DNA from: Escherichia coli | GTDB taxonomy: Bacteria; Pseudomonadota; Gammaproteobacteria; Enterobacterales; Enterobacteriaceae | Length of the DNA stretch: 64,000 bases | Direction: 5' to 3' (one strand) | Assembly: GCF_003334765.1 (NCBI RefSeq) | Contig: NZ_QOWT01000003.1 | In this document: in pieces, positions 6,485-54,712 of the stretch | Layout of the letters: every line of letters starts with the position of its first letter | Position numbering within the stretch: position 1 is the stretch's first letter | Translations under genes and position numbers: made by a program | Notes under the pieces: model-generated | The model's input: only the letters and a program-made list of their open reading frames with translations | The model's database searches: none | What the model was told of the DNA's origin: nothing

Positions 6485-8310
6485 TGAAATTGCAAAAGCA
6501 ATTACTGGAAGCTGTGGAGCACAAACAGCTACGCCCGCTGGATGTGCAATTTGCCCTGACCGTGGCGGGAGATGAACATCCTGCCGTCACCCTCGCGGCG
6601 GCACTGTTAAGTCATGATGCCGGAGAGGGACACGTTTGTTTGCCGCTTTCACGACTGGAAAATAACGAGGCGTCGCATCCGCTGTTGGCGACCTGTGTCA
6701 GTGAAATCGGTGAGCTACAAAATTGGGAAGAATGCTTGCTGGCTTCTCAAGCGGTCAGCAGGGGAGATGAACCCACGCCGATGATCCTCTGTGGCGATCG
6801 TCTTTATTTGAATCGCATGTGGTGTAACGAGCGCACAGTGGCACGCTTTTTCAACGAAGTGAATCATGCCATTGAGGTTGATGAAGCTCTACTGGCGCAA
6901 ACCCTGGACAAACTTTTTCCAGTAAGCGATGAAATTAACTGGCAAAAAGTTGCGGCGGCAGTGGCGCTGACGCGGCGGATCTCGGTGATTTCCGGCGGCC
7001 CTGGCACCGGTAAAACGACCACCGTAGCGAAGTTGCTGGCAGCGTTAATTCAAATGGCCGACGGCGAACGCTGCCGTATCCGTCTGGCTGCACCAACGGG
7101 TAAAGCTGCCGCGCGCTTAACCGAATCTCTCGGCAAGGCTTTGCGACAGTTACCGCTGACCGATGAACAAAAGAAACGCATTCCGGAAGATGCCAGCACT
7201 TTGCACCGATTGCTGGGCGCGCAGCCGGGTAGCCAGCGTTTACGTCATCATGCCGGTAACCCGCTGCATCTTGATGTGCTGGTGGTAGATGAAGCGTCAA
7301 TGATCGATCTGCCTATGATGTCGAGACTGATCGACGCCTTGCCCGATCATGCGCGAGTGATCTTTCTCGGCGATCGTGATCAACTGGCCTCGGTTGAGGC
7401 TGGGGCTGTGCTGGGCGATATCTGCGCTTATGCCAACGCGGGCTTTACCGCCGAGCGTGCCAGGCAGCTAAGCCGCCTGACGGGGACTCACGTTCCGGCA
7501 GGAACCGGCACAGAAGCGGCATCTTTGCGCGACAGTCTCTGCCTGCTGCAAAAAAGCTATCGTTTCGGCAGCGATTCTGGCATTGGTCAGTTAGCTGCGG
7601 CGATCAACCGTGGTGATAAAACGGCAGTGAAAACCGTTTTTCAGCAGGATTTTACTGATATCGAAAAACGGCTTTTACAGAGCGGCGAAGATTATATTGC
7701 GATGCTTGAGGAAGCTCTTGCGGGTTACGGACGTTATCTGGATCTGCTGCAAGCGCGTGCCGAGCCGGATTTAATCATTCAGGCGTTCAATGAGTACCAG
7801 CTTTTGTGCGCCCTGCGGGAAGGGCCGTTTGGCGTGGCTGGACTGAATGAGCGAATTGAGCAGTTTATGCAACAGAAGCGCAAAATTCATCGTCATCCGC
7901 ACTCTCGTTGGTACGAAGGTCGACCGGTGATGATTGCCCGTAATGACAGCGCGCTTGGGTTGTTTAATGGCGATATCGGTATTGCGCTGGATCGCGGGCA
8001 GGGGACGCGCGTCTGGTTTGCGATGCCGGACGGCAATATTAAGTCTGTGCAACCGAGTCGCTTGCCAGAGCACGAAACTACGTGGGCGATGACGGTACAT
8101 AAATCGCAGGGATCGGAGTTCGACCATGCGGCGTTGATTTTGCCGAGCCAACGCACGCCGGTAGTAACGCGAGAGCTGGTTTATACCGCGGTGACCCGCG
8201 CGCGTCGCCGTCTGTCGCTGTATGCCGATGAGCGCATATTAAGTGCGGCAATCGCCACTCGTACTGAGCGGCGCAGTGGTCTGGCGGCGTTGTTTAGTTC
8301 ACGGGAATAA
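6484..8310 (+). CDS. recD: RecBCD helicase subunit RecD
   Basis: 608-aa ORF with P-loop GGPGTGKTT; start ATG overlaps recB stop (TAATG); recognised as RecD. Confidence 0.95.
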
Positions 8311-11261: not shown

Positions 11262-11338
<77 letters not shown>

Positions 11339-12678: not shown

Positions 12679-12863
12679 CAGGGTGAGGGGTAACCTCACA
12701 TCCTGATTATTGACTAAGTGCGCGTTGTTCATGCCGGATGCGGCGTGAACGCCTTATCCGGCCTACAAATCATGCAAATCCAAAATATTGCAGGAGTTAT
12801 GTAGGCCTGATAAGCGTAGCGCATCAGGCATTTATGCGTTTAGGGTGAGGGATAACCTCGCCC
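12679..12863. repeat. BIME/REP cluster: two inverted REP palindromes flanked by near-identical hairpin-forming direct repeats
   Basis: REP copies GCCGGATGCGGCGTGAACGCCTTATCCGGCCTAC (12733-12766) and inverted GTAGGCCTGATAAGCGTAGCGCATCAGGC (12801-12829); flanking GGGTGAGGG(G/A)TAACCTC at 12681-12700 and 12843-12860. Confidence 0.8.
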
Positions 12864-15823: not shown

Positions 15824-16029
15824 AAAAAAAAGCACCGCAATTAGGCGGTGCTACATTAATCACTATGGACAGACAGGGTAAATGTACAGGAAGTGAAAAA
15901 AGGTAGCTTTGCTACCATGGTCTGAATCGCAGACCAATTGCAAACACAACAACACAACATCACAACCGTAAGCCAAAAGTTCACCAGAACACGCATTCCG
16001 ATAAAACTTTTCGTTCCGGCTCAGGAAGT
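15824..16029 (-). ncRNA. gcvB: GcvB small regulatory RNA (Hfq-dependent, regulates amino-acid transporters)
   Basis: Reverse complement reads ACTTCCTGAGCCGGAACGAAAAG...GCACCGCCTAATTGCGGTGCTTTTTTT, the 206-nt GcvB sequence with GU-rich R1 region and intrinsic terminator; divergent from gcvA. Confidence 0.92.
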
Positions 16030-18625: not shown

Positions 18626-19357
18626 TCAGGCTGTTACCAAAGAAGTTGCAACCTGGCGCTCATCAGAAATAATGTGCGTTACCTCATCCAGATGCCCGAT
18701 GCGGGCTTCCCCTGAACGATTAAATTTACTTTTATCAATCAATAACAACGATTGCGCGGCACGTTTTAATAGCATCGATTTGTAATCAGCGTTGATCGCA
18801 TTGGAGTCCCACAGTGCGCCGCTGCTATCGATCCCTTCACAAGAAAAAATAAACAGATCGATTTCCAGCGATTTAAGTTGGGAAATCAGCGAGGGATTGA
18901 CGTAACAGCCATATTTGCGCTCAAGTGTGCCGCCGGAACTGATCAGTTGAATGCGTTCGCGTTTACCGAGTTCATGGCAAATCGGATGGCTATTGGTGAA
19001 GACCTGAATGTTGATGTCAGGCAACTGGCGTGCCAGATACCAGCAAGTTGAACTGGCGTCTAAGGCTATCACCATCCCTTCTTCAATCCACGCGAGCGCC
19101 TCGCGCGCGATATCTGCTTTATGCGCATAATGGCTTTTCAGCCTGATGTGAAAGGGATCGCCACTGTCTTGATTTTGACGGTGGATATATTTAGCGCGTC
19201 CATGATTGCGCAGAATTTTACCCTGCGTCTGTAATTCATTGAGATCGCGACGAATGGTTTCTTTACTGACCTTTAGCTGTTCAGAGAGAGCTTCCGTGGT
19301 CAGGCTGGTATGGTTCAGCAGCAGGTCGACTATCGCTTGCTGGCGTGCCGCTTTCAT
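18626..19357 (-). CDS. fucR: DeoR-family activator of the L-fucose regulon
   Basis: ORF track begins MKNMKAARQQ; the recognised FucR N-terminus MKAARQQAIVDLL gives 243 aa; N-terminal DeoR HTH. Confidence 0.9.
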   Translation of the reverse strand: MKAARQQAIVDLLLNHTSLTTEALSEQLKVSKETIRRDLNELQTQGKILRNHGRAKYIHRQNQDSGDPFHIRLKSHYAHKADIAREALAWIEEGMVIALDASSTCWYLARQLPDINIQVFTNSHPICHELGKRERIQLISSGGTLERKYGCYVNPSLISQLKSLEIDLFIFSCEGIDSSGALWDSNAINADYKSMLLKRAAQSLLLIDKSKFNRSGEARIGHLDEVTHIISDERQVATSLVTA

Positions 19358-19414
19358 ATTTTTCACCCCATCATTCGATAACCGCCCGCGTCATGCGGGC
19401 GTACCGGTATGAGA

Positions 19415-19838: not shown

Positions 19839-21287
19839 TCACACTTCCTCTATAAATTCAGGTTCAGTTTGCGGGTAGAAATAACGGTACTGATAATGAA
19901 TCTGTGCGCGGGCTTCTTCCGGGCTGTTAAATTCCCCTACGCCATACCAACCGAACAGCGCAGCTCCTGCGACGGTCGTTTCGGCGTCGTCGAGAACTTT
20001 TACCGGAATATCAAGCATATTGGCTTTAATCTGATTCCACAATGTGTTGCGACTTCCTCCACCGACTAACAATAATTCAGAGGCCTTAAAGTGCCCGATT
20101 TTTTCCAGCATCTGTAGATTGCGCTGTAATTGCGCAGTTAACCCTTCCAGCGCCGCGCGATAGAAATGCCCCCGCGTGGTATTAAGCGTCACTCCTTGCC
20201 AGCCAGCGTTCTGACACGACAATAAATCACACTGCATTTTTACGCCATCCGCGCCAGGCGCGATCAGACGAGCTTCTTCAATCAACATTTGCCAGGGTGT
20301 TTCAGCCGTCCAGAACAGTTTTCTCACCCATTCCAGCACGCCGGATGCCAGCCATTGCATACCTGGGTTATACAACCCTGCCTGGCTATCCAGTTCGCAG
20401 GTGGAACCGGCGTACTGACTTAACAGCGAAGTATCAACCTGGGCGCTGCGAACCATTAAAATTTCCCATGTACCGGAAGAGAGCACGGGTTCATTTTGTT
20501 CAGCACCAGCGCCAAAAAGGGCGAACTGGGTATCGTGACCTGCGGAAATCACCGGTATGCCAACGGGTAAGCCGAGCATTGCTGCGGCGCTGTTCTGTAG
20601 CGTACCAATCTGTTCACCCGCTTCCACCAGACGAGGGAAGAGTCGGCGTGGAATACCGGTGGCTTGTAAAATTTGCGGACTGAAATCGCGTTGCTGGATA
20701 TCCAGCATCTGGCTGGTTCCGGCCATCGTGATATCAGTAGTGAATTCGCCGGTTAAACGGTGGTTAATCAGCGACGAAATAAAGAGCCAGGCGTGCGCGC
20801 GTTCCAGCAGTTGTGGATGATTTTCTTTCAACCACACCAACTTATATAACGTATTGAAACTAAAGGCTCCGACGCCAGAAATAGCCTGCAACCGCTGTGC
20901 GGAGATTAACCGTTCAATATTGTCCATAACCGCTGCTGTTCGCGGACATTTCCAGCTAATAATCGGATAGAGCAGATTGCCTTGCTTATCTACCAGAGCG
21001 CCATCCACACCAAAGGTGGTGACGGCGATACCGCGGATGTGGCATTCAGTCAGTTCACTATTGATTTGCCGACAGCAATCAGCAAAGCGTTGCAAAATGG
21101 CGTCTAAAGACCACTGGTGCCAGGTGTTGTTTTCCATCGCGATATCGCTGGCATTAGGCGTTGAGGCGCGGGCAACAATTTTGCCCTGCCGATTAACCGC
21201 GATGGCCCTGACATTGGTCGCGCCACAGTCGAGTACCAGGATAACTTCTTGTTTCATAATCGCTCCTGCAATATAGCCGGATAACAT
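19839..21287 (-). CDS. fucK: L-fuculokinase (FGGY carbohydrate kinase)
   Basis: 482-aa ORF; an internal Met at [17 protein letters not shown] (start 21257) is a plausible alternative start. Confidence 0.9.
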
Positions 21288-21365
21288 TGCTTATCCGGCT
21301 AACCACTCTTGCTTGTTCAGGCCCGGTAGCCGGAGCGACCGGGCATCACATCAGGGAGTAATGTA

Positions 21366-23173: not shown

Positions 23174-24490
23174 TCAGTTAGTTGCCGTTTGAGAACGGAA
23201 ACGGGCAAAGATAAAGATGACCGCGAAGCAGAGTGCGGGGATCAGTTCAGCAGTGGGGATGTTGCCCGCCGCGTCACTGACAAAACCCATGACCGGAGTG
23301 ACAATACCGCCGCCAATAATGGTCATAACGATGAAGGACGAACCATATTTGGTGTCCTGGCCGAGATTCTTAATGCCCAGCGAGAAGATTGTTGGGTACT
23401 GAATCGACATAAAGGCGCTGCATAAAGTCAGGGCTATTAAGCCCACATGACCGCCAGCGAAGGCTGAGATCAGGCACAGTGCCATAGCGATTAATGCGTA
23501 GGCGGCCAGGACTTTGTGTGGTGCGAAGCGACTGATGAGCCAGGTACCGGTGAAACGACCAATAAAGAAGCACACCATGGTTCCGGTTAAATAGTTAGCG
23601 GCAAAGCCTGCAGTCATACCTGGAATTTCTTCTACAGCGTAGCGAATCAAATAGCTCCAGCAGGCCGTTTGTGCGCCGACATAGCAGAATTGCGCTAATA
23701 CCGCCCAGCGCCAGTGGCGAATACGCGCCAGGCGAGAAAGCGATGCGGAGAACGATCCTTGTTTGGCGTCACTGTGATTATCACTCTGCAATGCCGGGAA
23801 TTTCGTCAGCATGATCAGCAGGGCGACCAGTAACACGATAGCCACGATGATCATATAAGGTGTCTGTACCGATAATACCAGGCTGTGTTTATACGCACTC
23901 AATTGCTCTGGAGACATTTTATCGAGAACGTCTTGCGATTGATGTGGCACGTTAGACAAAATAAGACTTTGCCCAAAGACAACCGCGATAATTGCGCCAA
24001 ACGAGTTAAATGTTTGCGCAAGATTTAAGCGGAAGTGACCACTACTTTCCGGCCCTAATACCGTAACAAAAGGGTTTGCGGCAGTTTCCAGACAACCTAA
24101 TCCGGCTGCAATAATAAATAGGCCAACTAAAAATAAGGTGTAGTTCATTATTTCTGCGGCGGGCCAGAATAATGCAGCACCCAAGGCATATAAAAATAAC
24201 CCGGTAATAATCCCTGCTTTATAACTGAGTTTTTTCATCAATATCCCAGCAGGGATTGGGATAATGAAATAACCAAAGTAAAAGGCCGATTGGATCAGGC
24301 CAGCCTGGAAATTTGTCAGCGTAAAAGCCTGCTGGAATTGAGGTAATAAAATGTCGTTAAGGTTATTGGCTACCGCCCAAAGAAAAAACAGTGAGCACAG
24401 CAGCGCGAATGGAATAATGTAACTTCTGCTTTGCCCTGCATCTTTATCTACCGCACGGTAACTCTGCGTTTGTATTGATGTGTTTCCCAT
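23174..24490 (-). CDS. fucP: L-fucose:H+ symporter (MFS)
   Basis: 438-aa polytopic membrane ORF recognised as FucP. Confidence 0.95.
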   Translation of the reverse strand: MGNTSIQTQSYRAVDKDAGQSRSYIIPFALLCSLFFLWAVANNLNDILLPQFQQAFTLTNFQAGLIQSAFYFGYFIIPIPAGILMKKLSYKAGIITGLFLYALGAALFWPAAEIMNYTLFLVGLFIIAAGLGCLETAANPFVTVLGPESSGHFRLNLAQTFNSFGAIIAVVFGQSLILSNVPHQSQDVLDKMSPEQLSAYKHSLVLSVQTPYMIIVAIVLLVALLIMLTKFPALQSDNHSDAKQGSFSASLSRLARIRHWRWAVLAQFCYVGAQTACWSYLIRYAVEEIPGMTAGFAANYLTGTMVCFFIGRFTGTWLISRFAPHKVLAAYALIAMALCLISAFAGGHVGLIALTLCSAFMSIQYPTIFSLGIKNLGQDTKYGSSFIVMTIIGGGIVTPVMGFVSDAAGNIPTAELIPALCFAVIFIFARFRSQTATN

Positions 24491-24678
24491 AGCATCCTCT
24501 TAGGTTCAGAAGCTTAAGCACGTAATCGGTTATGTTTTCAAAAGTGCAAAACCAGCGAGTTCGGGCTTCATATCAGTGAATATTTGCCTGTCTGAAATGA
24601 ACTCATGGATTCATTTTCAAATAAAAAACGCTCTGTAATATGACGGCGGTCACACTTATTAGCTAGAAGGTGACTTTA

Positions 24679-24694
24679 TGTGACTACCATCACT
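24679..24694. promoter_or_regulatory. CRP-like site in the fucPIK/fucAO divergent control region
   Basis: TGTGA-CTACCA-TCACT seen in sequence; one mismatch from the TGTGA-N6-TCACA consensus. Confidence 0.5.
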
Positions 24695-24752
24695 TTAATA
24701 ATCGAAATTTCATGCCCGTTTCAGAAAATAAATCATAAAAAACACAAATCAG

Positions 24753-24847
24753 ATGACCGTATTAATTGTTTGTGCCGAAAACGGTCATTCCGGGCTTGGA
24801 GGAATAGAAAAATGACCGTTTTGATAAATATTTTTAAGAGCGGTCAT
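24753..24847. promoter_or_regulatory. Four evenly spaced ATGACCGT/ACGGTCAT half-sites in alternating orientation (putative FucR operators)
   Basis: ATGACCGT at 24753-24760 and 24812-24819; ACGGTCAT at 24781-24788 and (C)GGTCAT at 24841-24847; about 30-bp periodicity. Confidence 0.45.
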
Positions 24848-25036
24848 TTTTAATGGGGTTATAAAAAGAGAACTTGCAGTTATTTACTGTGATTAGTTGA
24901 ACCAGGTCACAAAATATAAGCTTGTGAATTTCTTTCTTGTTAATCAGGAAGAAGATGGTGGGTAATTAAACGGCTAATTCAATAGTGTGAAAGGAACAAC
25001 ATTATTGCCCTGTTTTGAATCAGAGAGAGGTAGCTA

Positions 25037-25684
25037 ATGGAACGAAATAAACTTGCTCGTCAGATTATTGACACTTGCCTGGAAATGACCCGCCTGGGAC
25101 TGAACCAGGGGACAGCGGGGAACGTCAGTGTACGTTATCAGGATGGGATGCTGATTACGCCTACAGGCATTCCATATGAAAAACTGACGGAGTCGCATAT
25201 TGTCTTTATTGATGGCAACGGTAAACATGAGGAAGGAAAGCTCCCCTCAAGCGAATGGCGTTTCCATATGGCAGCCTATCAAAGCAGACCGGATGCCAAC
25301 GCGGTTGTTCACAATCATGCCGTTCATTGCACGGCAGTTTCCATTCTTAACCGATCGATCCCCGCTATTCACTACATGATTGCGGCGGCTGGCGGTAATT
25401 CTATTCCTTGCGCGCCTTATGCGACCTTTGGAACACGCGAACTTTCTGAACATGTTGCGCTGGCTCTCAAAAATCGTAAGGCAACTTTGTTACAACATCA
25501 TGGGCTTATCGCTTGTGAGGTGAATCTGGAAAAAGCGTTATGGCTGGCGCATGAAGTTGAAGTGCTGGCGCAACTTTACCTGACGACCCTGGCGATTACG
25601 GACCCGGTGCCAGTGCTGAGCGATGAAGAGATTGCCGTAGTGCTGGAGAAATTCAAAACCTATGGGTTACGAATTGAAGAGTAA
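25037..25684 (+). CDS. fucA: L-fuculose-1-phosphate aldolase (class II)
   Basis: 215-aa ORF recognised as FucA. Confidence 0.95.
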   Translation: MERNKLARQIIDTCLEMTRLGLNQGTAGNVSVRYQDGMLITPTGIPYEKLTESHIVFIDGNGKHEEGKLPSSEWRFHMAAYQSRPDANAVVHNHAVHCTAVSILNRSIPAIHYMIAAAGGNSIPCAPYATFGTRELSEHVALALKNRKATLLQHHGLIACEVNLEKALWLAHEVEVLAQLYLTTLAITDPVPVLSDEEIAVVLEKFKTYGLRIEE

Positions 25685-34200: not shown

Positions 34201-34569
34201 GTCGACAGGGAGTCAGACAACGAAGTGAACATCAGGATGATGACACTTCTGCAGGACACACCAGGATGGTGTTTCAGGGAAAGGCTTCTGGATGAAGCGA
34301 AGAGGATGACGCAGGACGCGTTAAAGGACACCTCCAGGATGGAGAATGAGAACCGGTCAGGATGATTCGGTGGGTCAGGAAGGCCAGGGACACTTCAGGA
34401 TGAAGTATCACATCGGGGTGGTGTGAGCAGGAAGCAATAGTTCAGGATGAACGATTGGCCGCAAGGCCAGAGGAAAAGTTGTCAAGGATGAGCAGGGAGC
34501 AACAAAAGTAGCTGGAATGCTGCGAAACGAACCGGGAGCGCTGTGAATACAGTGCTCCCTTTTTTTATT
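34201..34569 (+). ncRNA. csrB: CsrB sRNA, CsrA-sequestering decoy
   Basis: About 369 nt beginning GTCGACAGGGAGTCAGACAACGAAG with roughly 18-22 GGA motifs, mostly CAGGA(U/A)G in predicted loops; ends in hairpin GGGAGCGCTGTGAATACAGTGCTCCC plus T7. Confidence 0.93.
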
Positions 34570-54317: not shown

Positions 54318-54712
54318 GTGTTCCCCGCGCCAGCGGGGATAAACCGGCAAAAACCGGGCAATCGCAAAAAGGCGTAATGTGTTCCCCGCGCCAGCGGGGA
54401 TAAACCTGTGTTTGCGGCATTAACGCTCACCAGCATTTCGTGTTCCCCGCGCCAGCGGGGATAAACCGACGTGGTCATGGGTGCTGCTGTTGCAGAGCCA
54501 GTGTTCCCCGCGCCAGCGGGGATAAACCGAGCAGATACACGGCTTTGTATTCCGTGCGCCCGTGTTCCCCGCGCCAGCGGGGATAAACCGAATAGCAATA
54601 GTCCATAGATTTGCGAAAACAGGTGTTCCCCGCGCCAGCGGGGATAAACCGGAGCCTGACGAGACTACTGAGGCCGTTCTGTCGAGTTCCCCGCGCCAGC
54701 GGGGATAAACCA
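54318..54712 (+). CRISPR. Type I-E CRISPR array, 7 repeats and 6 spacers of 32 bp, leader-proximal end at 54318
   Basis: 29-bp repeat GTGTTCCCCGCGCCAGCGGGGATAAACCG at 54318, 54379, 54440, 54501, 54562, 54623 and 54684 with 61-bp period; repeat 2 ends CCT; terminal repeat is degenerate (GAG...ACCA). Confidence 0.96.

What the first reader, a model, noticed from the sequence alone, without database searches (positions are those of the whole stretch)
24679..24847. Periodic array of ATGACCGT half-sites in the fuc divergent promoter region
Four copies of an 8-bp motif in strictly alternating orientation (24753, 24781, 24812, 24841), spaced about 30 bp apart, lie between fucP and fucA, downstream of a CRP-like site (24679-24694). 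The phasing of roughly three helical turns suggests cooperative binding of an oligomeric regulator, most plausibly the DeoR-family activator FucR encoded in the same window. I do not recall whether the FucR operator has been precisely defined.
Basis: partly seen in the sequence, partly recalled or inferred. Interest (0 to 1): 0.3.

Follow-up and report, generated by a model that had tools for sequence, protein, structure and literature searches.

The report
Known FucR operator sites, fuc promoters
The repeated ATGACCGT motif between fucP and fucA is real and marks the binding sites of FucR, the fucose activator; published work from 2021 to 2025 already describes these sites, so the finding is correct but not new.

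Summary
The window is E. coli K-12 sequence; the 546-bp fucP-fucA spacer is identical to MG1655. The motif is there: ATGACCGT exact at 24753(+), 24781(-) and 24812(+), and ATGACCGC (7 of 8) at 24840-24847(-). The CRP-like site at 24679-24694 is the published OCrp1.

The FucR reading is right but already published. A DAP-seq FucR motif with core CGGnCA was reported in 2021. Zhang et al. 2024 mutated two of these copies. Changing 24774-24788 cost about 30% of induced fucAO promoter activity. Changing 24834-24848 cost more than 50-fold. A 2025 paper speaks of four FucR operators.

My comparison of 80 Enterobacterales loci adds three points.
- There are five sites, not four.
- The conserved core is TGnCCGTTT.
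- The array is not evenly periodic. It consists of one single site plus two convergent pairs with a fixed 20-bp spacer, each side at a fixed distance from a CRP site. The linker between the pairs varies from 25 to 53 bp.

Every one of 49 loci with fucR nearby has such a pair, against 1 of 31 without.

Verdict: real, functional, ordinary and already known. Low interest.

The parts
24710..24723 (+). S0, a FucR half-site (TCATGCCCGTTTCA, core ATGCCCGT at 24712-24719). It lies on the fucP side, 29 bp centre to centre from OCrp1.
   Evidence: PWM score 13.9. It is a conserved island in the footprint, and most other genera have exact ATGACCGT here. The distance to OCrp1 is 29 bp in 36 of 36 five-site loci. 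It has not been tested by mutation. The published V4 versus V5 deletions show it is not needed for the fucAO promoter.
24751..24764 (+). S1, a FucR half-site (core ATGACCGT at 24753-24760). It is the left arm of convergent pair 1.
   Evidence: Searches show the exact match. It is conserved. S0 to S1 is 41 or 42 bp and S1 to S2 is 28 bp in 35 of 36 loci. Construct V5 removes this site and keeps full fucAO promoter activity.
24777..24790 (-). S2, a FucR half-site (plus strand ACGGTCAT at 24781-24788). It equals the published OFucR2, CCGAAAACGGTCATT at 24774-24788. It is the right arm of pair 1.
   Evidence: Searches show the match; PWM score 19.0. PMC11011485 reports that mutating it lowers induced fucAO promoter activity by about 30%. 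The same paper says the 2021 DAP-seq study identified this site.
24810..24823 (+). S3, a FucR half-site (core ATGACCGT at 24812-24819). It is the left arm of convergent pair 2. No text I could read names it as an operator.
   Evidence: Searches show the match; PWM score 18.3. It is among the most conserved blocks of the spacer. S3 to S4 is 28 or 29 bp in 36 of 36 loci. With S4 it forms a 44-bp palindrome at 24808-24851. It has never been mutated on its own. Construct V6 removes S2 and S3 together and loses only about 30%.
24836..24849 (-). S4, a FucR half-site (plus strand GCGGTCAT at 24840-24847, 7 of 8). It equals the published OFucR3, TTAAGAGCGGTCATT at 24834-24848. It is the right arm of pair 2.
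   Evidence: Searches show the match; PWM score 13.3, the weakest of the five. PMC11011485 reports that mutating it lowers induced fucAO promoter activity more than 50-fold. It lies 59 or 60 bp from the centre of OCrp2 in the 35 five-site loci where a CRP-like site was scored on that side.
24636..24657 (.). OCrp0, the CRP site nearest the fucPIK promoter (TATGA-CGGCGG-TCACA, centre 24646.5).
   Evidence: 9 of 10 match. Conserved. Named in PMC11011485 and PMC11894529. A T insertion at -146 from the fucP ATG, which maps to 24636, is described there as immediately downstream of OCrp0.
24676..24697 (.). OCrp1, the second CRP site on the fucP side (TGTGA-CTACCA-TCACT, centre 24686.5).
   Evidence: 9 of 10 match. 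Strongly conserved. It lies 40 bp from OCrp0. The published IS5 target (CTAG, -374.5 from the fucA ATG, about 24662) lies between OCrp0 and OCrp1.
24893..24914 (.). OCrp2, the CRP site essential for the fucAO promoter (ttagtTGAaccaggTCACAaaa, centre 24903.5). That is -70.5 from the published transcription start at 24974.
   Evidence: The sequence is given in PMC11011485, and mutating it abolishes promoter activity. It is conserved. The transcription start is a C at -63 from the fucA ATG, which maps to 24974.
18626..19357 (-). fucR, the gene for the DeoR-family activator that reads these sites. The annotated 243-aa form starts MKAARQQ.
   Evidence: ORF found. NCBIfam equivalog NF007720, 'L-fucose operon activator', 508 bits against a cut-off of 259. 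Pfam HTH_DeoR plus DeoRC. The K-12 annotation agrees.

Best explanation
These are the operator half-sites of FucR, the DeoR-family activator of the fucose regulon that responds to fuculose-1-phosphate.

Anatomy: there are five asymmetric half-sites of about 14 bp, consensus aAaTGnCCGTTTt. They lie in the middle of the divergent fucPIKUR/fucAO control region, between CRP sites that serve each promoter. Two fixed-geometry blocks are joined by a linker of variable length.
- fucP-side block: OCrp0, 40 bp, OCrp1, 29 bp, S0, 41-42 bp, then the pair S1 and S2.
- fucA-side block: the pair S3 and S4, 59-60 bp, then OCrp2.
- Each pair is ATGACCGT-N20-ACGGTCAT with an AT-rich centre.

Shown:
- The sites match the published FucR motif.
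- S2 and S4 are needed for fucose induction of the fucAO promoter. S4 is essential and S2 accessory.
- Activation needs CRP bound at OCrp2.
- All five sites and their spacings are conserved wherever fucR is linked.

Inferred:
- Each convergent pair is bound by one FucR dimer or a higher oligomer across a bent AT-rich spacer.
- S0, S1 and S2 mainly serve the fucPIKUR promoter, and S3 and S4 mainly serve the fucAO promoter.
- FucR works from far upstream (-130 to -260 from the fucAO start) by helping CRP and RNA polymerase, as Zhang et al. proposed, rather than by touching the core promoter.
For: Sequence:
- Across the whole 64-kb window only two convergent pairs at 27-30 bp exist at a lax threshold, and both are here.

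Literature:
- PMC11011485 quotes the DAP-seq FucR consensus with CGG and CA most conserved.
- It reports that mutating OFucR2 (S2) costs about 30% and OFucR3 (S4) more than 50-fold, under fucose only.
- It reports that mutating OCrp2 abolishes activity.
- The deletion series, mapped from the primer table, gives V4 and V5 full activity, V6 (S4 only) about 70% and V7 none.
- PMC11894529 refers to operators OR0 to OR3 and to 'all four known binding sites' downstream of the IS5 insertion point at about 24662.

Comparative:
- The footprint over 43 non-Escherichia loci shows the five half-sites and three CRP sites as the main conserved islands in an otherwise mostly poorly conserved spacer.
- The conserved core TGnCCG equals the DAP-seq CGGnCA.
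- Spacings are given.
- 49 of 49 fucR-linked loci carry at least one 28/29-bp convergent pair, against 1 of 31 FucA-paralogue loci without fucR (Fisher 3.5e-21).
- No such pair occurs in 1.2 Mb outside the promoter regions.
- Spacer centres are 81% AT against 65% for the whole spacer region.
- FucR identity is confirmed.
Against: - I found no footprint or gel-shift result that resolves single sites. Binding at S0, S1 and S3 rests on motif match and conservation only.
- The weight matrix was trained on the same alignment it was then used to scan. The E. coli 8-mer with at most one mismatch gives the same picture, and spacing was not part of the training.
- The idea that a pair is the obligatory unit fits poorly with V6, where S4 without S3 still gives about 70% of induced activity. 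It also fits poorly with the S2 point mutant equalling the combined S2 and S3 deletion. That result could instead mean that S2 and S3 act together; their arms are a perfect 12-nt inverted repeat.
- Those assays used a reporter at the lac locus in fully induced cells, which could hide cooperativity.
- The role of S0 to S2 at the fucPIKUR promoter is inferred from position and from the non-inducible phenotype of the IS5 insertion. No site mutants exist for that promoter.
Confidence: 0.85

Rival explanations
1. One reading: one evenly phased array of about 30 bp, or three helical turns, bound cooperatively by a single FucR oligomer that spans all four sites.
For: In E. coli the spacings are 28, 31 and 28 bp. 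In 29 of the 36 five-site loci the S2 to S3 gap is also 27-31 bp. DeoR-family proteins are commonly oligomers; that is general knowledge and was not tested here.
Against: The S2 to S3 gap ranges from 25 to 53 bp and takes the values 38, 47, 49 and 53 within Yersinia, so it is not kept in phase. The invariant distance of 28 bp is 2.7 turns, not 3. A fifth site, 41-42 bp from S1 and in the same orientation, breaks the pattern. S4 alone supports about 70% of fucAO promoter induction. Photorhabdus has a different layout, + - + - + with gaps of 28, 12, 28 and 20 bp.
Confidence: 0.12
2. The sites are read by a regulator other than FucR, for example SrsR (YgfI) or another DeoR paralogue.
For: No tool result supports this. 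The gap it relies on is that no published experiment resolves FucR binding to each single site, and an SrsR site has been proposed in the same intergenic region.
Against: The motif equals the FucR DAP-seq consensus. The site mutations affect activity only in fucose, the condition that activates FucR. Deleting srsR has no effect on the operon. The pairs are present in 49 of 49 fucR-linked loci against 1 of 31 others.
Confidence: 0.02
3. A chance cluster, or a relic of a local duplication, with no function.
For: Some 7-mer reaches four copies within 100 bp in 3.25% of random 64-kb sequences. Some 8-mer reaches three copies in 34.5%.
Against: The cores are conserved while the sequence around them drifts, from Escherichia to Yersinia and Photorhabdus. 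Published mutations have phenotypes. The spacers of the two pairs show no similarity beyond the motif.
Confidence: 0.01

Closest known systems
Published E. coli FucR operators OFucR2 and OFucR3, also called OR0 to OR3 (Zhang et al. 2024, PMC11011485; Zhou et al. 2025, PMC11894529), and the DAP-seq FucR motif (Baumgart et al. 2021, as quoted in those papers)
   Same: It is the same DNA. The window's spacer is 100% identical to MG1655. S2 equals OFucR2 and S4 equals OFucR3. The core CGGnCA is the same one.
   Different: The 2024 paper names only the two copies that read CGGTCAT on the fucA-sense strand. The 2025 paper mentions two further 'putative' operators for the fucPIKR promoter but gives no coordinates in the text I could read. 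I therefore cannot tell whether S3, or S0, is among them. The count of five, the N20 pair unit, the fixed distances to CRP sites and the cross-genus conservation are not stated in either text.
MelR and CRP at the E. coli melAB promoter, a case of co-dependence on two activators (from my own knowledge, not checked with tools)
   Same: A sugar-specific activator binds several upstream sites. Its main contribution is to let CRP occupy a weak site, and CRP then recruits RNA polymerase. This is the mechanism Zhang et al. propose for FucR and OCrp2.
   Different: MelR belongs to the AraC family and has 18-bp sites, with CRP sitting between the MelR sites. FucR belongs to the DeoR family, and its sites lie 60 bp or more upstream of the CRP site.
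Other DeoR-family operator sets, such as E. coli DeoR, GlpR and AgaR (from my own knowledge; PMC12632272 summarises the family as repressors)
   Same: The protein architecture is the same, HTH_DeoR plus DeoRC. There are multiple operator copies per control region, and a sugar-phosphate acts as effector.
   Different: Those proteins are repressors whose operators overlap or flank core promoters, and the effector releases them from DNA. FucR is an activator, its effector is reported to enable binding, and its sites lie 110-260 bp upstream of the transcription starts. The half-site sequences are unrelated.

Membership tests
FucR operator site | Match to the FucR consensus, with CGG and CA invariant (CGGnCA, which reads TGnCCG on the other strand) | tested here: met
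   All five sites carry TGnCCG: ATGCCCGT, ATGACCGT three times, and ATGACCGC. The consensus is quoted. The same invariant positions come out of 176 orthologous sites.
FucR operator site | Located in the control region of an operon that depends on FucR | tested here: met
   The sites lie between fucP (23174-24490, minus strand) and fucA (25037-25684, plus strand). Dependence of both operons on FucR comes from the literature.
FucR operator site | Mutating the site reduces fucose-dependent induction | not testable with these tools
   Published for S2 (about 30% loss) and S4 (more than 50-fold loss) in PMC11011485. S0, S1 and S3 have not been mutated individually. Deletions show S0 and S1 are dispensable for the fucAO promoter. 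I found no data for the fucPIKUR promoter.
FucR operator site | Direct binding of FucR protein, resolved at the single site | not testable with these tools
   Only DAP-seq evidence at the level of the region is cited. I found no footprint or gel shift in the papers searched.
FucR operator site | Conserved in orthologous loci and found together with the regulator gene | tested here: met
   Footprint. Site maps for 50 loci (the window plus 49 fucR-linked loci). 49 of 49 loci with fucR against 1 of 31 without.
   9 of 10 match with centre at 24686.5. Conservation scores of 8-9 across the half-sites. Named OCrp1 in the literature. Its position relative to the fucP transcription start (-81.5) is my inference from a class II placement of OCrp0 and was not verified.
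Evenly phased operator array bound by one cooperative oligomer | Constant spacing between all neighbouring sites across orthologues, in whole helical turns | tested here: not met
   S1 to S2 and S3 to S4 are fixed at 28 or 29 bp, but S2 to S3 varies from 25 to 53 bp. 28 bp is 2.7 turns.
DeoR-family regulator (FucR protein) | N-terminal HTH_DeoR domain and C-terminal DeoRC sensor domain; match to the FucR equivalog model | tested here: met
   PF08220 at 1.3e-21 and PF00455 at 2.5e-45. NF007720 at 508 bits against a cut-off of 259.

The most novel reading that the evidence does not exclude
The FucR operator may not be four equivalent boxes. It may be a five-site, two-block structure. Each block would be locked at a fixed distance and helical face to its own CRP site: 29 bp on the fucP side and 59-60 bp on the fucA side, a difference of about three turns, with the ATG end of the nearest half-site facing CRP in both. 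The basic FucR unit would span 36 bp (half-site, N20, half-site) across an AT-rich, presumably bent, spacer. On this reading S3, the most conserved half-site on the fucA side, and S0 are genuine operators that current reporter assays have not probed. The two blocks would also let FucR control the two divergent promoters semi-independently.
Probability: 0.45. Interest if true: 0.3.

Novelty: already known. Interest (0 to 1): 0.15.

Why it matters
The fuc regulon is a textbook system for experimental evolution, through IS5 activation of growth on propanediol, and for gut colonisation. Knowing exactly where FucR binds explains why an IS5 insertion at about 24662 makes fucPIK non-inducible: it cuts the promoter off from every FucR site and from OCrp1. 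The main point, that these boxes are FucR sites, is already published, so the finding adds nothing new.

The comparative map made here is a modest refinement. It covers the five sites, the invariant N20 pairs, the fixed distances between FucR and CRP sites, and the variable linker. It tells experimenters which mutations are still missing: S0, S1 and S3, and changes in spacer length. It also gives a usable motif and spacing rule for annotating FucR regulons across Enterobacterales.

Tried and rejected
- Obligatory partner test. I expected S3 to be as essential as S4 for the fucAO promoter. I mapped the published deletion end-points from the primer table. V6 lacks S2 and S3 yet keeps about 70% activity, so the prediction is not supported under those assay conditions.
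- Partner for S0. I looked for an inverted partner of S0 at +28 bp. The sequence at 24740-24747 is AAACACAA, so E. coli has none. Photorhabdus does have one.
- Duplication origin. The spacers of the two pairs share nothing beyond the motif, so I rejected a recent duplication.
- Extra conserved FucR sites. Hit density outside the intergenic region of the fuc loci, which takes in the sequence upstream of fucR, is at background: 0.035 per kb against 7.4 per kb at threshold 13. None were found.
- Promoter scan. The consensus scan of the spacer found no sigma-70-like promoter and no terminator. This fits activator-dependent promoters but gave no independent fucP transcription start.
- Primary sources. 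Baumgart 2021, Zhang 2010, Podolny 1999 and Zheng 2004 are not held. The DAP-seq motif is therefore cited second-hand, and the coordinates of OR0 and OR1 remain unknown to me.
- Solved structures. A PDB sequence search with FucR found nothing at E <= 0.001, so I could not check the geometry.

Full report
**What is in the sequence.** The window carries the E. coli fucose locus. On the minus strand are fucP (23174-24490), fucI, fucK, fucU and fucR (18626-19366). On the plus strand are fucA (25037-25684) and fucO. The 546-bp fucP-fucA spacer is 100% identical to K-12 MG1655 and is present in 5,040 of 5,426 complete E. coli genomes. ATGACCGT is exact at 24753(+), 24781(-) and 24812(+). The fourth copy, at 24840-24847(-), reads ATGACCGC. 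Start-to-start spacing is 28, 31 and 28 bp. An independent repeat finder recovers the same copies. It also shows that the last two copies sit inside a 44-bp imperfect palindrome at 24808-24851, and that the middle two have perfectly complementary 12-nt arms.

**Is it more than chance?** For the given 8-mer, the window holds 6 exact matches against 1.6 expected, and none of 100 shuffles reached 6. The motif was chosen after looking at the sequence, so a fairer null asks how often any word clusters like this. Some 8-mer reaches three copies within 100 bp in 34.5% of random 64-kb sequences. Some 7-mer reaches four copies in 3.25%. Counting alone is therefore only moderately persuasive, and the case rests on the evidence below.

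**What the literature already says.** Zhang et al. 2024 (PMC11011485) quote a FucR consensus from the DAP-seq study of Baumgart et al. 2021, in which CGG and CA are the most conserved positions.
- They name two sites. OFucR2 is CCGAAAACGGTCATT, which maps to 24774-24788. OFucR3 is TTAAGAGCGGTCATT, which maps to 24834-24848.
- Mutating OFucR2 lowered fucose-induced fucAO promoter activity by about 30%. Mutating OFucR3 lowered it more than 50-fold. Neither mutation mattered in glycerol.
- The fucAO transcription start was mapped to a C 63 bp upstream of the fucA ATG, which is 24974.
- The CRP site OCrp2 (24893-24914) is essential. The authors propose that FucR acts mainly by helping CRP bind there.

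I mapped their deletion series from the primer table.

| Construct | Starts at about | Lacks | Induced activity |
|---|---|---|---|
| V4 | 24698 | OCrp0, OCrp1 | full |
| V5 | 24760 | the copy at 24712 and the first ATGACCGT | full |
| V6 | 24826 | all but the last copy | about 70% |
| V7 | 24871 | all copies | almost none |

Zhou et al. [quoted passage not shown] They state that 'all four known binding sites' lie downstream of the IS5 insertion point, at -374.5 from the fucA ATG, or about 24662. The texts I could read do not give coordinates for OR0 and OR1.

A search with FucA returned 80 loci from species-representative Enterobacterales genomes. Of these, 49 have fucR within 8 kb. Of those 49, 46 also have a close fucP, and three Edwardsiella loci have a divergent one. 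The other 31 are FucA paralogues without fucR and serve as negative controls.

An alignment of the 46 spacers with the window shows a mostly poorly conserved background with sharp conserved islands.
- CRP sites: OCrp0, OCrp1 and OCrp2.
- FucR half-sites: five, not four. The extra one is 24712-24719. It reads ATGCCCGT in E. coli but exact ATGACCGT in most other genera.

Across 176 orthologous sites the invariant positions are T, G, then any base, then C, C, G, followed by a T-run. The consensus is aAaTGnCCGTTTt. This is the reverse complement of the DAP-seq CGGnCA core.

**Architecture.** The orientation pattern + + - + - is found in 36 of the 50 spacers scanned (the window plus 49 loci) at the threshold used, and a 37th shows it with one extra hit. 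Most of the rest keep the positions but have a degenerate last site.

| Interval | Spacing in the 36 five-site loci |
|---|---|
| OCrp1 to S0 (centre to centre) | 29 bp in 36 of 36 |
| S0 to S1 | 41 or 42 bp |
| S1 to S2 | 28 bp in 35 of 36 |
| S2 to S3 | 25 to 53 bp (38, 47, 49 and 53 within Yersinia) |
| S3 to S4 | 28 or 29 bp |
| S4 to OCrp2 (centre to centre) | 59 or 60 bp (scored in 35 loci) |

The conserved object is therefore not an evenly spaced array. It is two fixed-geometry blocks joined by a variable linker.
- The repeating unit is a convergent pair, ATGACCGT-N20-ACGGTCAT, with an AT-rich centre (81% AT against 65% for the whole spacer).
- Every one of the 49 fucR-linked loci has at least one such pair, against 1 of 31 loci without fucR (Fisher 3.5e-21).
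- No such pair occurs in 1.2 Mb outside the promoter regions of these loci.
- In the 64-kb window the only two pairs are the ones in the fuc spacer.
- The single exception among the controls is Serratia sp. DD3. It has a fucA-fucO operon preceded by one perfect pair, with fucR presumably elsewhere in the genome.

One caveat applies. The weight matrix was built from the same alignment it was used to scan. However, spacing was not part of the training, and the plain E. coli 8-mer with one mismatch gives the same maps.

**How it most likely works.** FucR is confirmed as the NCBIfam 'L-fucose operon activator' equivalog, with HTH_DeoR and DeoRC domains. When loaded with fuculose-1-phosphate it binds these half-sites.
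- The sites lie far from both core promoters. From the fucAO start at 24974 they are at -130 to -260. The whole spacer contains no consensus-like sigma-70 promoter. Both facts fit promoters that depend on activators.
- Shown by others: S4 is necessary and nearly sufficient, and S2 is accessory, for the fucAO promoter. S0 and S1 are dispensable for that promoter. CRP at OCrp2 is indispensable.
- Inferred here from conserved geometry: S0, S1 and S2 together with OCrp1 and OCrp0 form the fucPIKUR control block. S3 and S4 together with OCrp2 form the fucAO block. In both blocks the half-site nearest CRP points its ATG end towards CRP. The two FucR-to-CRP distances differ by 30-31 bp, about three turns, so the same face of the helix is presented.
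- The IS5 insertion point at about 24662 lies between OCrp0 and OCrp1. It therefore separates the fucPIK core promoter from every FucR site, which fits the published non-inducible phenotype.

**What does not fit neatly.** If a pair were an obligatory unit, removing S3 should cripple the fucAO promoter. Instead V6 keeps about 70% activity, the same as the S2 point mutant. Two readings are possible. Cooperativity may be masked in a fully induced reporter at the lac locus, or S2 and S3 may act together. The variable S2 to S3 distance in other genera argues against the second reading, but the published data cannot decide. I found no footprint that resolves single sites.

**Comparison with known systems and novelty.** This is the published FucR operator region. 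Membership is met on motif, location, conservation and co-occurrence with the regulator gene. Mutational evidence exists for two of the five sites, and direct single-site binding has not been shown. Mechanistically it resembles co-dependent activation of the kind seen with MelR and CRP, rather than the promoter-overlapping repressor operators of DeoR, GlpR or AgaR. The 'evenly phased oligomer array' description fails its defining test. The finding as written is already known. The five-site, two-block map is an incremental refinement.

**Verdict.** Novelty: already known. Interest 0.15.

Noticed in passing
window 24922-24969: PMC11011485 places the fucAO -35 element 'TTGtgA' at -96 to -91 from the fucA ATG. 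By my indexing of the identical K-12 sequence, those positions (24941-24946) read TAATCA. TTGTGA sits at 24922-24927, which is -115 to -110 and 36 bp from the stated -10 element AATTAA at 24964-24969. The stated -35 and its coordinates do not agree with each other.
   Followed up: partly
L082 (NZ_CP110117.1), locus 392-1170; hits H1-H4: Several natural E. coli isolates, from sewage and from humans, carry an IS1 element in the fucP 5' leader. It sits just upstream of the fucP start codon and leaves all FucR and CRP sites intact. It may silence or rewire fucPIK in the wild, much as the laboratory IS5 insertion does.
   Followed up: partly
L057 (Serratia sp. DD3) 7740-8000: A fucA-fucO operon lies downstream of a co-directional four-gene cluster I did not identify. 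It is preceded by a single perfect FucR-type pair, ATGCCCGTTT-N-AAACGGGCAT at 28-bp spacing. No fucR or fucP lies within 8 kb. This looks like a minimal one-pair FucR operator, or control by a regulator encoded elsewhere.
   Followed up: partly
L076, L077, L079, L081 (Photorhabdus) fucP-fucA spacers: Photorhabdus has a different site layout, + - + - + with gaps of 28, 12, 28 and 20 bp. The site next to the CRP site on the fucP side has gained an inverted partner, and the last site (TATTCCGT) is degenerate.
   Followed up: partly
window 34210-34569 (+): CsrB small RNA (Rfam RF00018, 380 bits). Its repeated CAGGATGA CsrA-binding motifs showed up as another cluster of an 8-mer three times within 100 bp.
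   Followed up: yes
window 54322-54591: A short CRISPR array with the E. coli type I-E repeat (GTGTTCCCCGCGCCAGCGGGGATAAACCG, period 61). The 7-mer cluster test picked it up.
   Followed up: partly
window 15824-16029 (-), 12766-12808 (+), 11265-11338 (-): GcvB small RNA, an ES036 (CssrF) small-RNA match and a tRNA gene, all found by the Rfam scan.
   Followed up: no
window 21274-21334: An inverted repeat, TAGCCGGATAACATTGCTTATCCGGCTA, plus a third TAGCCGGA copy lie at the boundary between fucI and fucK. It looks like a REP-type or stem-loop element between the two genes.
   Followed up: no
window 12157 (-), 57613 (+), 59404 (+): Isolated high-scoring matches to the FucR half-site matrix (scores 16-18) occur outside the fuc spacer. 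None has an inverted partner at 27-30 bp. They are probably chance single sites, but their gene context was not examined.
   Followed up: no
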